Origin: Octopus vulgaris
Lineage: Eukaryota
Direction of reading: 5' to 3'
Length of the DNA stretch: 64,000 bases
NCBI GenBank assembly: GCA_951406725.2
Contig: OX597824.1
Location: 50,964,001 to 51,028,000, forward strand
Shown: positions 11,222 through 58,164 of the stretch, in pieces
How the letters are laid out: every line of letters starts with the position of its first letter
How positions within the stretch are numbered: the stretch's first letter is position 1
The notes under the pieces: model-generated
Seen by the model: the letters and a program-made list of their open reading frames with translations, nothing else
Database searches by the model: none
What the model was told of the DNA's origin: nothing
Position numbers and translations under genes: made by a program

Positions 11222-12870
11222 TGATGGCTGCCCCCTCGTTATCGAGTATTGCCATTGCACGAAGCTTAACTGTTATTGGTGCTGTGATCGAATGTGACTT
11301 TTTAGCCCAGCTAAAGATCTACAATGTCTTGTACAGAATTGGCAACTTTACCGGTATTTGCGGACTGTAGTTGTAACTGGGCTTCATGTACCTTTGCATG
11401 TCGTTTAAGTCCTCCTGCCGAATTACACTCTCTTCGACATGCCCGACAGATATGATTAGTATGGTGTGTTACACCACCACCAGTGGCCAGGTTATCACTC
11501 ATCTGTCTCGCTTTATGACTACAAAGATGACTCTTGAGTCCAGCTTTACTGAGGCAAGGTCTTGCACAGACACTGCATGTCAGCATCATAGGAAGACCCT
11601 TCCCATCTGGAAGTGTAACAGAGATGTCCTTCCTGACATCCCTCCTTGCTTTCTTATGTGCCCGCGTGCACAATCCTTCTCCACCTGCTACGATCAATAG
11701 CTATGCCTTCCCATGTGTCAGGAGAGATGCAAGCATCTCTTAAGGAAGCCTTCAGTAAGTCCTTATACCACTTTTATAGTTTATGTGGAGATCGTTCTCC
11801 TTTAGCTAACTCTCCATAAAAGAGTTGTTTTGGCATCCTTGAATCCTTCATTCTGACCAGATGACCACTCCACCTGAGCCTTTGCTTTAACACAAGAGCT
11901 TCTATACGTTCACACCGAAAGACTTCCAATATTTCAAGATCACTGATGCGGTTCTTCCACTTAATGCCATAGATCCGTCTGAGACACATCTGATGGAAAC
12001 GTTCCAGTTGTTTAAGGTGGTATCGATATGAGACCCACGTCTCGCAGGCATAGAGAAGAGAAGGAAGTACACATGCCTTGTACTCCTTTATCTTTGTCTT
12101 TCTGCATATGTCTCGCCGACTCCAAAGGCACTTTTCTAGCCTACTGAAAGCAACACTTGCTTTCCTAATTCTATATGGAATTTCATCATCCAAATTGCTA
12201 TATCAATTAATAGTGCTTCCCAGGTAGACAAACTGATCATCTACATCAAGTCGTTTACCATACACATAGATATTTGGTACACTATACTGCTTACCAGGGG
12301 CAGGTTGGTACATAACAACAGTTTTCTTGAGATTGACTGTCAATCCTAAGGCAGTGCAAGCATCAGAGAATGCATTCAAAATGTGTTGCATATCAATCTC
12401 TGTGTGTGCTACTAGCTCATAATCATCTGCATACAAAAGGTCTCTTATGATAGAGGTAAATACCTTTGTTCTTGCAGCAAAGCGCCTGATATTAAATATG
12501 CTGCCAGAGGTTCGATAATGGATGTAAACACCGTATCTGCAGTTTCTGAATGCAATACAGAACACCATCGAAAAATATATGGCAAATAGGGTCGGTGCCA
12601 GAATATCTCCCTGTTTCACTTCATTTTGTATTGAAATGGGTTCCGACATTTTCCCTCAAACATTCACCCTACCATTCATGTCTTGATGGAAAGACCTAAC
12701 CAAAGCAAAGAACTTTTCAGGACACCCAAGTTTCTGGAGGACTTTCCACAATGCTTTTCTATTGACGGTATCAAAGGCTTTTGTCAGATCGACAAAAACT
12801 TGATACAAATCCAGACCCTGTTCTACACACTTCTCCTGAAGTTGTCTAGCTGAAAAGATCATATCAGCAG
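11222..12870 (-). mobile_element. RTE-clade LINE, 5'-truncated, frameshifted (RT + two C2H2 zinc fingers)
   Basis: ADMIFSARQLQEKC..VFVDLTKAFDTVNRKALW, VKQGDILAPTLF, LLYADD, FVYLGS, LRWSGHLVRM..RMPKQLFYGEL, CSVC..LKSHLCSH and CRAC..LKRHAKVH. The 3' end abuts a (TATG)n-like tail. Confidence 0.92.
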
Positions 12871-13006
12871 TACGTACATACACACATACAAGCACACATA
12901 TATGCATACATACATACATATATACATCATACATGTACACATACATATATACATATATGCATGCATACACACGCGCATACAAACATACATACATGGACAC
13001 ATACAC

Positions 13007-13037
<31 letters not shown>

Positions 13038-13038
13038 T

Positions 13039-13104
<66 letters not shown>

Positions 13105-13167
13105 GCATACATACATACATACATACATACATACATACATACATACATACATACATACATACATACA

Positions 13168-13820
13168 TAAACCCGAAGGCAAAGAAATAAGAACCCACAA
13201 TATGGTAGAAGCCATAGCCACTCATGATAAAAAGGAATACTGGTGGAATGTCCCAGTGAAGACCTCAATAAAATGTAAACACAACAGACCTGATATAATT
13301 ATTTGGAATATTAGAAGAGAGTCTGTGCACAGTTGTGGAAATTAGCTGTTAACATAAAGATGTTAACATAAGTAGATGTTAACATAAAGCTGAAGATCCA
13401 CGAAAAAGAGAGTACCTACGCTGAACTATTGAGAAATCTGCCGAAACTCCATCAATATTACAAGTTCAGGTTCAGACCTGTAATTATTGGGGCACCGGTT
13501 ATGTAAAATACTGCCTATATAGCAAAACCAGAAGGGAGAACTCTGATTCCAATACTACAAATCCAAACCACTAGTGGAACTGTAAAAATCTGTAAAACTT
13601 GCCTCAAGTTTATCATTTCAGTATATATGAGCATGTCTAGATATGCAACTATAAAAATGAGAATACATACATAAAACAGAACCAAGAAATGTGCACGTAT
13701 ACATGCATACAAACATACAAGAATACCCTGTTTTTGATGTTGAAATTCCAATGAAGGAACCTTGGATCTAGATTATAAACCGGCACCTTCTCTATTGGCA
13801 AGAAATCTTGAAATGAAACT
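13168..13820 (+). mobile_element. R4/Dong-like RLE element 3' fragment inserted in (TACA)n
   Basis: HDKKEYWWNVPVKTSIKCKHNRPDIIIWN...KESTYAELLRNL...RPVIIGA. Its 3' UTR piece 13615-13710 recurs at 11005-11095. Confidence 0.7.
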
Positions 13821-36411: not shown

Positions 36412-37576
36412 TGACTTTTGCTTTATGTCTGTACAAGTTGGCTCCAAGTCTCACCCAGAGACCTCAAGAAACAACAGGTTGGAAGTTCTGTGCCATATAT
36501 TTGGGGGGTTTTTTTTGTGTTGTACTAGTGAATGTCTAATACATAAAAAAAAAAAATAAAAAATAAAAAAAAGTTTGTTTTAAACCTTGGGATTACATAG
36601 AGAGTATTTTGCGTAGGATATGAGCAGTTCCCATGAGCACTATCTTTTGAATTTCTGCCATTTTGGGGTTTCCTGGTATCTGAGTTAGGTAGCAATCAGT
36701 CCCATTCGCTATCATTCCCAGGGCATCTATGACAACAGGTATTGTTTTAGTCTTCAGCTTCCACATTTTGCTGATTTCTATTTCAAGATCTTTATATTTG
36801 CTCAGTTTTTGGTAGGTCTTGACAGATACGTTTATATCGATTGGGACAGTCATATCAATGAGGAGGCATGTTCTTTGTCTGAAGTCTTTCAATATGATGT
36901 CTGGCCTATTTGCATCTATCTTCCTGTCAGTTTGAATGGTGAAGTTCCAGAGGAGTGAGATGTGGTCATTTTCAAGCACTGGAGGTGGTTTGTGTTCCCA
37001 CCAGTTTTTTTCATGGGGCAACTCCAGGTTTTTGCAAATTACCCAGTGAATATATTGTGCAGCTCTATCATGCTTACTGAGGTACTCTGTAGGCGCTAGA
37101 AGACTGCATTTGGAGACAACATGATCAATGGTTTCATTTTGTTGTCGGCATACACGACATGTTGGGCTACTGCCGTTCTTTAATATGTTGGCCAGGTAGT
37201 TTCTTGTTGGTAGGCATTGATCTTGAGCTGCTATGATAAACCCCTCTGTTTCAGATTTTAAGCCAGAGGCCATTAGCCATTGATGGGTCAGGGCTTTGTC
37301 GATATCTGCATTATACGCTATCTTTGGGTATTTGCCATAGAGAGGTTTTTCTTGCCATTTATTATTCAGAATAACTAAGGCCGCAGTTTTGGCACGGGTT
37401 TTCATGCGCCTAGCTTTTTCTGTGCTTGTTTCTTGTATGTCTATCTCTAATTCCGAAATTGGTTGTATTCGGAATTCACTTAGATATTCCTTTGCCTGTT
37501 TTGTGACTGAGTATGATGCTTTCTTGTTTTCATGTTTTGAGACAAGTTTTAACATCCAGTCCTCAGAGTTTTTCAG

Positions 37577-37577
<1 letters not shown>
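36411..37577 (-). mobile_element. R4/Dong-like non-LTR retrotransposon, 5'-truncated, open 3' ORF (CCHC + restriction-like endonuclease)
   Basis: ORF 36593..37555: ETEGFIIAAQDQ, CRVC..ETIDHVVSKC, HD...IHW, DRKIDANRPDIILKD, LIDMTVP, KLSKYKDL, MGTAHILRKIL. Flanked on both sides by (TTA)n. Confidence 0.92.
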
Positions 37578-37667
<90 letters not shown>

Positions 37668-54986: not shown

Positions 54987-56834
54987 AAGAGTAAAAATGA
55001 TAAAAATAATGAATGTAAACACTTACTAAAGACAAAGTAATGGAAACTCTATTCCAATATGTCCCATAACTGCAAAAACCAGTCAGTGATCACGAGAGAC
55101 CTTGTTTAAATCGACCCCCACCCTCAAATCTGCGAAATACTTCAATCTATCGTGAATTTATTGCAATAAAGACAATACTACAATAGACAGAAAAACATAA
55201 TTGTGCTCTATTGAGGAAATGAGATTTTTTTTTTTTGCTTTGTTGGTTTTCATGGGGTTGGCTTTTATAGTAACCTTTGCTGTGGACATCAGATCTCTGA
55301 AATTTTGAGAAATGTCAAGGTTTGTTTTCCCTCAATCAGTACCTAAAATATGAAAGCATAACAGGAATAATTCCGTGTGTCTGGCTGTGCAGTTCTATCT
55401 CTGTGATAGTGAAATCACAAAACAGAAACCATCGAAAGAAGTATTCTTGTTTGCTAAGGACTGTTTATAAGGTAGAATTACTGCACGTTTATAAGGAGCA
55501 ATTTTAGCATTGCTTCTTTATAAACAGTACATAATATTTTCTTTCTACACAGCATAAAACTATACTCGTTAAACCTAGGTATTAATCATCTTCATTGGGT
55601 CCAACATGTCGAAATCACTCAAAGATCGTTATTTACTGTTTAATCCTAATCAGCTACCAACTGAATTCGGAATCCAGGCAGATACCACCCAGAATCTGGT
55701 TTCAAACGTAGTAAAACATTTTTCGATGTTTACTGCAGTTTTACATGAATATAAATGCCCAATTCAGTCCCTAACCTACAGAGAATGTAAGCTTAATGTG
55801 ACTGATTGTATTCTAGATAGGGTATGGATAGTTTTATTTGGGTACTGATTCGACAATAATCTAAAGGATAACGAAACATCCAGTTATACTTACTAGGAGA
55901 TCCAGGGTAACTGCTGAACGATATTTAACACACATTTAGCTCACCAAGGAGAAAAGGGCACCACAAATTTTCCCAGTGCCTGATATGCCATAGTACAAAC
56001 AGCAATTTATAACAGATTTTGTTTTAATAAATATTTAGATGTTGAAAAATTGCACTATCTTATGTTGCTCTAATTATAAGTAAATAATATCAATGTATTG
56101 ATTTCTGCTGGTTAATGTAAAAATGATGACTAACAGATTATATCTAATATCGCTGTGTGGTCTGTTCTGGAAGGAAAATGAATTTTATGATGATTTTTAA
56201 AAGATTTTTTAATTCCGACACGGTGTATCGAAAGCTGCGTTTTCTAGTCAGTTACTCTATTTTTAAGCCGGTAAAGTGGAGACTGAAATTAATGTACTAC
56301 TGGTGACTATTTTATCGGTATACGCTTCGATTAAGCTATAGTGAGTCATAAAATCCTGGACACTGTAAAGTGTCGAGTGTGAAACAGTGTCGCGTCTGCT
56401 TTCTAACTACCATCCTGCAAAATTAAGCAAGAATTCCTTAGGCATGCAGTTTGAGAAACTGGAGAAAGAGGCAAAATTAACTGTCAGGAGTTTAATTCAA
56501 TGTAGGCACAATTTATTGTTATTCGTTCCCGCTGTCTTTCGCTCCCTGAAACTAAAGGAATGCAAAAAACAATAAGAGAACCTATACATGTTATTTGAAT
56601 CTGTTAAAAATGACAGACAAATATATCTCAAATGACATCATACTACCTTCAAAACTGTAGGAGATATTCTGGATTTCTGTTTTTAAAATCTACATAGTTA
56701 GGTCTTGGTTACCTTTGAGCGTAGAGCTGAGATCAAATGGTTAAGAAAAAGCAGCACACCGAATTAGTGAAACAAGTGAAGAGAGAAAAGATAAAAGAAG
56801 TAAAGAGATAAGAAAAAAGGATGAAGGAATAGTA

Positions 56835-57171
56835 TTTAACACCACCTAAACATCGCCATTCCCTAGGAATCGATGATACTACCATTTTAACCCCGGGATT
56901 ATACCTCCTTCAGCTGGTTATGTAGAGCATTCTGCACACGATACATATTGTAAGAGGGGAGAGAACTCCCTACTATTTTAGCCCAGAGGCCATCAGACCG
57001 TGCGGATTCGACCTTCCTATGGTCATCCTCAGTGAGGAAGTTCTCTCCTCACTTGCAATATATATCGAGTGCAGAGTGCACTGTATAACCCTCCGGAGGA
57101 GGTGTCCTCCTGAAGTTAAAATGGTAGTATCGTCGGTTCTTAATGAACAGCTGTGTTTAAGTGGCGTTAAA
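56835..57171. repeat. Imperfect inverted repeat, ~135-140 bp arms (56835-56974 / 57031-57171), ~56 nt loop
   Basis: The arms align essentially without gaps at roughly 75-80% identity, e.g. gatactaccattttaac / gttaaaatggtagtatc and ggagagaact / agttctctcc. Confidence 0.9.
56990..57037 (-). ncRNA. Hammerhead ribozyme-like motif at the apex of a long inverted repeat
   Basis: Minus strand: CCUCA-CUGAGGA-U-GACC AUAGGAA GGUC-GAAU-CCG CA CGG-UC-UGAUGG. GUC triplet, with GAAA changed to GAAU. Confidence 0.65.
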
Positions 57172-58164
57172 CATTACTTGTCAGTATGAATACTGCTTTC
57201 ATCTCGTATAGAGATTTTCTTGACTAGCTAGTTTGCTTGGTGGATGAATATAGAAATGTAGAAATATAGAGATGTTGAGAGATGTTCAAACACAACTGTG
57301 ATATGAGAAGCAGAGAAAAACGGAGAACCAAAAGAAATATGAAATCAGAAACCAACAATAAAATTTTAAGTAATATATAAGACAAATAAAAAACCTCAGA
57401 TAATAACACAGGGTCGACATTCTAGGAAGATAAGAATATGAAAATAGTCCATTGAATAAACATCATTACCTTACAGGAAGTTTTTCTATCAATTCCTAAA
57501 CAGTTGAAAGGTAAAAGTGACTCCAGTTGGATTTCTAATCAAGAACGATAGAAAGGTGAGAACTATTGTAAAACATTTTAACAACTATGCCATCCAATGT
57601 TCTTCCACATACAAAATAACAACACCAGCTCATGTGTATTCAGACAAAATAAACGCATCAATGCCTTCTATTTTGGGTAAACAGCTTTAAAAAGATGCTC
57701 ACAATATCTAGATAATCAGAGAAAGACGAAAAACTCTAGAATATTGCATTCAAGGAATTTCTCCCTATTCTTCCATTTCCTTTTTTTATTGTTTATTATT
57801 TGCAAATGTATTTATTTATATTTTGTAAAGTATCAGAAAATTAAGATAACTTATGACCATCGCCCTGAAATGATTGTCCTTATCAAATATTTCAGCTACA
57901 AAGTGCACATGTGTGTAGCCTACAATTTTGAAGATATATATCGTCATATATTTCTATGTATTAAAATGATTTGTGTATGTAATATTTATAAATGCATTTC
58001 GGCCGTCTTTATGCTCTGACTTCAAATTCTGCGCACGTCGACTATACCAATAGGTCGATAAAAAAAGTACCCCTGGGATCGATGTAATCGACTCGCCCGA
58101 AATTACTGGCCTTATATTTATAAATGCATACGTATGTGCGTATGTCTATATATAAGCACATATA

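What the first reader, a model, noticed from the sequence alone, without database searches (positions are those of the whole stretch)
56835..57171. Rod-like ~335-nt inverted repeat capped by a hammerhead ribozyme: candidate retrozyme/viroid-like element
Seen: two ~135-140-nt arms align almost without indels but with scattered substitutions (~75-80% identity). On the minus strand, the loop and the inner end of one arm fold as a type I hammerhead (CUGAGGA, GACC/GGUC stem II, CCG/CGG stem III, GUC triplet, GAAA>GAAU), so the rod reads as an extension of stem I. It carries no ORF, and I saw no TSD or PLE protein nearby. Known: metazoan non-LTR retrozymes are small HHR-bearing units that yield structured circular RNAs, and viroid-like RNAs are rods with ribozymes. 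Inference: this may be a genomic copy of an undescribed cephalopod ribozyme-bearing structured RNA family. Ungapped, evenly spaced mismatches suggest the RNA structure was maintained rather than being a decaying DNA palindrome. The G-U compatible mismatches show no clear strand bias.
Basis: partly seen in the sequence, partly recalled or inferred. Interest (0 to 1): 0.85.

Follow-up and report, generated by a model that had tools for sequence, protein, structure and literature searches.

The report
Decayed hammerhead retrozyme, head-to-head insertion
The rod is two truncated copies of an old, dispersed, ribozyme-bearing repeat joined head to head, likely when a Penelope-type retrotransposon enzyme inserted them; its arms differ as much as unrelated copies do, so it is most likely decaying DNA of a known kind of element, not a viroid-like RNA.

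Summary
The inverted repeat (109/142 identical) and the type I hammerhead motif are real, but the rod is not the unit. The unit is a non-coding ~357-bp repeat, examined at 73 loci, in three subfamilies about 13-16% diverged. Copies are 5'-truncated with two fixed 3' ends. In 30 of 73 loci two copies meet head to head at varying junctions, never tail to tail, and 17 of 19 resolved cases carry a ~62-bp tail on one end only. All this is the published anatomy of Penelope-like elements and their non-autonomous retrozymes. The arms differ by 23.5%, against 23.1% for unrelated copies, with no G-U strand bias, so pairing was not maintained. The family hammerhead shows compensatory changes and a palindromic stem III (dimer type). 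This copy has a private A15.1>U change, a truncated stem I and no partner, so it is probably dead. Side result: the core is CCGAnGA (C4) in two subfamilies, in a younger 364-bp family (39/40) and in a young autonomous Penelope-like element (26/26). Verdict: new member of a known kind; interest 0.3.

The parts
56830..57034 (-). 5'-truncated copy 1 of the ~357-bp unit (model columns ~152-356: hammerhead plus 142-nt downstream segment), ending at the short fixed 3' end
   Evidence: profile match and column-to-window map; 14.4% from subfamily-B column majority
56990..57034 (-). Degraded type I hammerhead: core 57032-57026, extra U 57025, stem II 57024-57021/57013-57010, GAA 57009-57007, A15.1>U at 57006, broken palindromic stem III, cut site 56996/56995, 3' strand of stem I 56995-56990
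57035..57176 (+). 5'-truncated copy 2 (columns 215-356), inverted and joined head to head to copy 1; this makes the second arm
   Evidence: 12.5% from majority
57177..57241 (+). Tail: continuation of copy 2 into the next unit up to the second fixed 3' end (columns 1-~64); present on this end only
   Evidence: contigs of other copies stop matching at 57239 in three runs
57033..57038 (.). Head-to-head junction with short imperfect microhomology; it removes most of the natural 5' strand of stem I
   Evidence: alignment with an unjoined copy
56819..56825 (+). Candidate 7-bp target-site duplication, left copy (GGATGAA), 2-4 nt outside the left end
   Evidence: a match of 7 or more arises in 4.4% of control pairs
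57242..57248 (+). Candidate 7-bp target-site duplication, right copy (GGATGAA), directly after the tail

Best explanation
The locus is one old insertion of a non-coding ~357-bp hammerhead-bearing repeat in which two 5'-truncated copies lie head to head, likely made by a Penelope-like reverse transcriptase-endonuclease acting in trans, and the rod is most likely a by-product that has decayed neutrally since. Shown: unit, truncation, two fixed 3' ends, head-to-head joins, one-sided tail, neutral-level arm divergence. Inferred mechanism: a multimeric or circular transcript of the unit was bound by a Penelope-type enzyme that nicked both strands of an AT-rich target and started one cDNA from each nick, one at the near initiation site and one at the tail site; both stopped early and were joined at their 5' ends through microhomology, giving arms that were identical at birth. 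In the source elements the hammerhead likely worked as a dimer between tandem units through its palindromic stem III; in this copy it is predicted to be inactive.
For: Family and unit: (181 profile hits in 73 loci; tandem period about 340-357). Ends: of 121 outer 3' ends, 44 at column 350-356, 40 at column 45-75, 37 elsewhere. Head to head 30 of 73, tail to tail 0; also 7 of 20 and 6 of 13 among loci not found with the palindrome. One short end plus one tail end in 17 of 19 resolved loci, p=3.5e-4. Neutral decay: 32/136 against 23.1%; 23 inverted pairs 21.2% against 19 direct pairs 21.9%, p=0.84. Positive controls in this genome: an RT + GIY-YIG element with a 766-bp 100%-identical inverted arm and a younger 364-bp family with arms mostly 92-99% identical. 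Hammerhead of Penelope type: extra nucleotide between 9 and 10.1, G10.1-C11.1, palindromic stem III (Cervera and de la Pena 2014); CUGAGGAUG is also the register in the anole Poseidon element. Published anatomy: Craig 2021. Two initiation sites, both strands cut and extended, predicted dimer: Frangieh 2024.
Against: No autonomous partner sharing this unit was found in 44 GIY-YIG-centred loci, only one 52-nt match outside an element. The tail (about 45-70 nt) is longer than the published 30-40 bp. 11 of 30 head-to-head loci have unresolved ends. A second locus (L036, another subfamily) has nearly the same junction and a third (L002) may have had it. One inverted pair (L007) is less diverged than expected, 13.6% against 22.2%, with 14 shared changes. 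Core columns vary a little less than matched columns even after dropping pattern-found loci (43 against 57, P about 0.03). Two-ended priming is inferred from genomic ends and from an in vitro study of a lizard element, not shown here.
Confidence: 0.87

Rival explanations
1. The hammerhead-capped rod is itself a selected, viroid-like RNA unit that is transcribed, cleaved and copied as a rod.
For: Very stable fold; gap-free arms; the loop is the ribozyme; nearly the same junction recurs in L036.
Against: Arms no closer than unrelated copies, and 3 shared changes against 2.1 expected; no G-U strand bias; junction varies across 30 loci; window and L036 arms show no same-side affinity (17 and 15 differences against 17 and 16 crosswise in 55 columns); private A15.1>U; one hammerhead polarity only.
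Confidence: 0.03
2. The inversion arose after insertion, by DNA-level fold-back or repair of a tandem array, not during retrotransposition.
For: Tandem arrays exist and palindromes can form by repair; short junction overlaps are common.
Against: All 30 joins are head to head with element 3' ends outward, none tail to tail; the two outer ends use different fixed sites in 17 of 19, which a copy of one end would not give; a TSD candidate frames the whole structure; a young autonomous element shows the same form at 100% identity.
Confidence: 0.06
3. The element is an ordinary MITE or foldback DNA transposon whose terminal inverted repeats have aged.
For: Inverted arms of equal age, no ORF, possible TSD.
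Against: Most loci (43 of 73) have no head-to-head join; copies are 5'-truncated and tandem; arm length varies; ends are asymmetric; the unit holds a covarying hammerhead.
Confidence: 0.02
4. The origin is as in the best explanation, but this copy was later co-opted as a hairpin RNA (editing substrate or small-RNA source) in a host transcript.
For: A 140-bp 77% duplex would form if either strand were transcribed.
Against: No excess pairing conservation; among 18 long ORFs of the window Pfam found two RT fragments and one low-complexity hit, no host gene.
Confidence: 0.02

Closest known systems
Metazoan non-LTR retrozymes (Cervera and de la Pena 2020, PMC7229834, parts 2-3 of 6 read and searched; Li, Clavereau and Pollet 2026, bioRxiv 10.64898/2026.07.22.740005, parts 1-3 of 5 read)
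   Same: Non-coding unit of 150-450 bp with a type I hammerhead, tandem and monomeric copies, GC under 50% (43.4%), coexisting with Penelope-like elements; mussel units are 350-390 bp.
   Different: Old and decayed; no sampled locus has two intact hammerheads; core mostly CCGAGGA; frequent head-to-head joins (the word 'inverted' does not occur in PMC7229834); circular RNA and cleavage untested.
Penelope-like elements and their pseudo-LTRs (Craig 2021, PMC8557442, passages; Cervera and de la Pena 2014, PMC4209133, parts 1-2 of 4 and supplement passages; Frangieh 2024, PMC11167929, parts 1-2 of 4)
   Same: 5' truncation, partial tandems, inverted 5'-truncated copy at the 5' end, tail on one end, AT-rich targets, hammerhead with an extra nucleotide between 9 and 10.1 and a palindromic helix III; the 2014 paper also notes hammerhead pairs 100-700 bp apart on opposite strands.
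   Different: No RT-endonuclease ORF; tail about 62 nt; C at core position 4, absent from the 2014 consensus CUGANGAH; partner element not identified.
Viroids and viroid-like rod RNAs with hammerheads (recalled; not read for this report)
   Same: Size near 340 nt, rod-like predicted fold, hammerhead motif.
   Different: Here the rod comes from two copies of one segment; single polarity; genomic retroelement ends; no sign of maintained pairing.

Membership tests
Non-LTR retrozyme | Type I hammerhead in each unit | tested here: met
   Core and stems I-III across three subfamilies with compensatory changes; 14 of 70 covering copies intact when C4 is allowed; the window copy is not among them
Non-LTR retrozyme | Head-to-tail tandem units of 150-450 bp | tested here: met
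   Family level: ~357-bp tandems at L012, L037, L047, L064 and others. This locus holds less than one unit plus an inverted piece
Non-LTR retrozyme | No protein-coding capacity, GC under 50% | tested here: met
   No ATG ORF over 56 aa; GC 43.4%; no tRNA gene in 6 loci
Non-LTR retrozyme | Lack of primer-binding site and polypurine tract | not tested
   No search made
Non-LTR retrozyme | TSD longer than 4 bp when present | tested here: inconclusive
   7-bp candidate here; 7 of 17 head-to-head loci have 6 bp or more against 8.8% of 272 control pairs, p=0.045
Non-LTR retrozyme | Active element: two consecutive units with complete hammerheads (definition of Li 2026) | tested here: not met
   None of 73 loci holds two intact hammerheads; the family is a fossil in this sample
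Non-LTR retrozyme | Self-cleavage and circular RNA | not testable with these tools
   Only assembled contigs were offered
Penelope-like element (non-autonomous derivative) | 5' truncation with fixed 3' ends and partial tandems | tested here: met
   84 of 121 outer 3' ends fall at two sites
Penelope-like element (non-autonomous derivative) | Inverted 5'-truncated copy adjoining the 5' end | tested here: met
   30 of 73 loci, 0 tail to tail
Penelope-like element (non-autonomous derivative) | Tail extension at one end | tested here: met
   17 of 19 resolved loci; length about 62 nt against 30-40 published
Penelope-like element (non-autonomous derivative) | Penelope-type hammerhead (nucleotide between 9 and 10.1, G10.1-C11.1, palindromic helix III) | tested here: met
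   compared
Penelope-like element (non-autonomous derivative) | Sequence homology to the pseudo-LTR of an autonomous element | tested here: inconclusive
   None in 44 GIY-YIG-centred loci, a small part of 6136 first-look candidates
Penelope-like element (autonomous) | RT plus GIY-YIG ORF | tested here: not met
   No shared sequence beyond the unit in 73 loci; no ORF
Viroid-like rod RNA | Rod pairing maintained by selection | tested here: not met
MITE | Constant terminal inverted repeats at both ends of every full copy | tested here: not met

The most novel reading that the evidence does not exclude
This genome hosts a lineage of Penelope-like elements and retrozymes whose working hammerhead core is CCGAnGA (C4), which CUGAnGA descriptors miss. 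It spans this fossil family, a young 364-bp sister family that may still make circular RNA, and a recently active autonomous element. Their head-to-head insertions record two-ended priming in which a dimeric enzyme uses a different initiation site on each target strand.
Probability: 0.35. Interest if true: 0.5.

Novelty: new member of a known kind. Interest (0 to 1): 0.3.

Why it matters
The locus itself is ordinary: a fossil insertion. It is a useful warning that hammerhead-capped rods in animal genomes can be Penelope-type insertion products rather than endogenous viroid-like RNAs. Two family-level results have some value. First, the 17-of-19 asymmetry of ends links the known one-sided tail to the two initiation sites and two-strand extension seen in vitro, and makes a still undefined step of Penelope transposition testable. 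Second, a C4 core fixed in young families implies that ribozyme surveys using CUGAnGA undercount animal hammerheads. C4 is already known as a tolerated, slower variant (PMC3088659 passage; CYGANGA descriptor in PMC13481778), so this is a new setting, not a new chemistry.

Tried and rejected
Rfam scans: no hammerhead family at the locus or in six other loci, so identification rests on motif, covariation and family evidence. Expression: no RNA holder listed; one run guessed to be RNA gave only 33-40-nt pieces over the element; neither is evidence. Orthologue selection test: the DNA runs differ from the window by too few letters to compare rod and flank. Autonomous partner: none in 30 + 14 GIY-YIG-centred loci. 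A loose C4-core pattern was not enriched over its control (194 against 204); of 8 hits followed up none belonged to this family and I did not establish any as a hammerhead. Monomer as rod: 23 near-full natural units folded as circles give mean z -2.2 on the ribozyme strand and -2.3 on the other; RNAalifold on 22 copies gives only 22 pairs in short helices; no rod, but decay limits this test. Isolated hammerhead folds are uninformative (z -0.4 for the window copy). Rod copied as a unit: rejected for L036 and L002. MITE and viroid-like readings rejected as above. Literature: searches for hammerhead + retrozyme + octopus, hammerhead ribozyme + cephalopod + Penelope, hammerhead + U4C, and CCGA-type core strings listed no paper on this family. 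Lunse, Weinberg and Breaker 2016, on Penelope-associated hammerhead variants, is not held and may cover C4 cores; Repbase/Dfam could not be searched; one supplement file of PMC4209133 and the bioRxiv supplements were not seen. Scan notes: nothing for this genome or sequence.

Full report
Observation. The inverted repeat is real: 56830-56971 and 57035-57176 align without gaps at 109 of 142 positions. The 337-nt region folds far below shuffles on both strands (z -15.3 and -18.8), which any such repeat would. The minus strand carries the hammerhead motif as described, with the cut site between 56996 and 56995. Rfam does not score it. One contig from an independent sequencing run crosses the whole rod with two other letters and one gap, so it is not an assembly artefact.

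The unit. A search of the own genome (2.8 Gb, 227 contigs) gave 96 matches from 40 scored of 497 candidates, mostly one arm plus the hammerhead, not a rod. Two more searches and one fetch gave 93 loci; I dropped 20 as duplicates of the same place, leaving 73. In the ribozyme orientation the unit is about 150 nt upstream segment, 61-64 nt hammerhead region and 142 nt downstream segment, about 357 bp, found as solo fragments, tandems and inverted pairs (181 profile hits). No sequence beyond the unit is shared across the family. The 136 hits of 60 or more columns fall into three subfamilies (59, 42 and 35 hits), on average 13.1%, 13.9% and 15.8% from their column majorities. The window belongs to subfamily B. 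The least diverged copy of 120 or more columns is 7.8% from its majority, so the sampled family is old. Copy number is a lower bound, probably several hundred.

Anatomy of insertions. Of 121 outer 3' ends, 44 fall at column 350-356 and 40 about 45-75 nt further on; 37 fall elsewhere. In 30 of 73 loci two 5'-truncated copies meet head to head; none meet tail to tail. This is not an artefact of the palindromic query: 7 of 20 and 6 of 13 loci from the other two searches show it, against 17 of 40. Junction columns range over the whole unit. Of the 19 such loci with both ends resolved, 17 have one short end and one tail end (p=3.5e-4); 11 are unresolved. GGATGAA flanks both sides. Across 17 loci, 7 have a flanking match of 6 or more nt against 8.8% of control pairs (p=0.045), so TSDs are suggested, not proven. 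Flanks are 74% AT.

Was the rod maintained? The arms differ at 32 of 136 columns (23.5%); either arm differs from unrelated subfamily-B copies over the same columns by 23.1% (70 comparisons). Over all loci, 23 inverted pairs differ by 21.2% and 19 direct pairs by 21.9% (p=0.84). Against the column majority, 30 changes are private to one arm, 2 columns changed differently in both, and 3 are shared, with 2.1 expected by chance. G-U-compatible mismatches split 13 to 11. Thirteen of 30 subfamily-B arm copies, the window's two included, have no indel, so gap-free arms need no selection. Against this reading: L007 is less diverged (13.6% against 22.2%, 14 shared changes), and L036 has nearly the same junction. 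L036 is of another subfamily and its arms show no same-side affinity with the window's, so I read it as an independent join favoured by microhomology; that cause is inferred.

The ribozyme. In the family, stem I is 6 bp, stem II 4 bp with a 7-nt loop, one U lies between A9 and G10.1, and stem III is a palindrome. Between subfamilies pair 151:193 goes U-A, U-G, C-G; pair 183:186 goes G-C to A-U; and the palindrome is kept through several double changes. That points to selection in the source elements for a dimer-type hammerhead as described for Penelope-like elements (PMC4209133; review passages PMC6765202). Core columns vary somewhat less than base-matched columns after dropping the 19 locus ids tied to the pattern search (43 against 57; P about 0.03); search bias or variation among source elements may explain it, but I did not resolve this. 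Fourteen of 70 covering copies keep core and stems, never two in one locus. The window copy is the only one of 40 subfamily-B copies without A15.1, its palindrome is broken, the junction removes most of the 5' strand of stem I, and it has no partner. Mutants at 15.1/16.1 are at least tenfold slower (PMC3088659 passage). It is predicted inactive. Position 4 is C in 23 of 35 B and 18 of 25 C copies, and U in 13 of 18 A copies. The U share in B does not differ from other CpG sites (p=0.13), whereas in A it does (p=1e-4), so the window's CUGA is probably decayed CCGA.

Controls from the same genome. GIY-YIG hits are abundant (148 matches from 150 scored of 6136 candidates) and include RT + GIY-YIG ORFs. 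One, L132, has a 766-bp inverted arm at 100% identity and a hammerhead-like motif with core CCGAAGA, found by a structural scan that gave 5 hits against 0 in ten shuffles and identical in 26 of 26 instances in 25 loci; these loci were the best matches to it, so identity is partly by selection. A second non-coding family of about 364 bp (2671 candidates) has tandems and head-to-head arms 91.7-98.7% identical in 14 of 19 loci (two further hits at 77% and 83% set aside, the first lying outside the unit, the second unchecked; three loci had none), C4 in 39 of 40 hammerheads, and faint similarity to this family's upstream segment (E 0.05-0.3). Young insertions thus have near-identical arms and old ones decayed arms. 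No autonomous element sharing this family's sequence was found in 44 loci.

Mechanism. Shown are the unit, the ends, the joins and the decay. From published work: Penelope-like insertions are 5'-truncated partial tandems, often with an inverted truncated copy at the 5' end and a 30-40-bp tail often at one end only (PMC8557442); a purified Poseidon protein nicks and extends both strands of AT-rich DNA, starts at two internal sites that delimit the tail, and is predicted to be a dimer; its hammerhead has the same CUGAGGAUG register (PMC11167929); animal retrozymes are proposed non-autonomous Penelope derivatives (bioRxiv 2026.07.22.740005). Inferred: a Penelope-type enzyme copied a multimeric or circular transcript from both target nicks, using a different start site on each, and the two short cDNAs were joined by microhomology.

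Comparison and novelty. It works like, and by anatomy is, a non-autonomous Penelope-like element of the non-LTR retrozyme kind (PMC7229834). It fails the 'active retrozyme' test, and cleavage and circles are untested. It is not a viroid-like rod or a MITE. My searches listed no paper on this family, but one key paper and the repeat libraries were not available. C4 is a known tolerated variant that is absent from the 2014 Penelope consensus and would be missed by the 'cuganga' descriptor of Craig 2021. Verdict: new member of a known kind; interest 0.3; most novel reading 0.35 likely, worth 0.5.

Noticed in passing
L021:1794-2582 and L171-L189: Younger non-coding ~364-bp tandem and head-to-head family (88-97% identical matches, 2671 first-look candidates) with hammerhead core CCGAYGA in 39 of 40 and palindromic stem III; inserted directly beside a copy of the old family at L021; best candidate for present-day circular RNA.
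   Followed up: partly
L132:1821-5008; L138-L162: Very young autonomous RT + GIY-YIG family (99% identical copies, 927 candidates) with a 766-bp perfect inverted arm at L132 and a minimal hammerhead-like motif, core CCGAAGA, with a U-U mismatch at the base of stem II.
   Followed up: partly
L124:430-5672, L125: Second young Penelope-like family with an intact 781-aa RT + GIY-YIG frame (many copies), a 359-aa upstream frame and 456-bp direct repeats 99% identical; no hammerhead found by my scans.
   Followed up: partly
L007:1246-1705: Inverted arms share 14 derived changes and differ by only 13.6%; possible gene conversion between arms or a distinct source element.
   Followed up: no
L036:2034-2353: Hammerhead-capped rod with almost the same junction as the window, in another subfamily.
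   Followed up: yes
L163:2421, L164:2595, L167:2416, L165/L166: Further CCGAnGA...GAAA motifs with pairable stem II outside this family; those at L164 and L167 have a palindrome after GAAA. Not established as hammerheads.
   Followed up: partly
L170 (G000:C6:122442500-122446500): Satellite of about 240-bp period, partly inverted, that matches the loose core pattern many times; no hammerhead stems checked.
   Followed up: no
L132:5672-5723: 52-nt match to the unit's downstream segment (E 7.5e-5) outside the Penelope-like element; possibly a more distant relative.
   Followed up: no
window 36596-37579 (-) and 12659-13264 (-): Fragments of reverse-transcriptase elements (zf-RVT and RVT_1 hits), far from the finding.
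   Followed up: no
window 55725/55726: All three DNA runs carry 73 extra letters here relative to the window.
   Followed up: no
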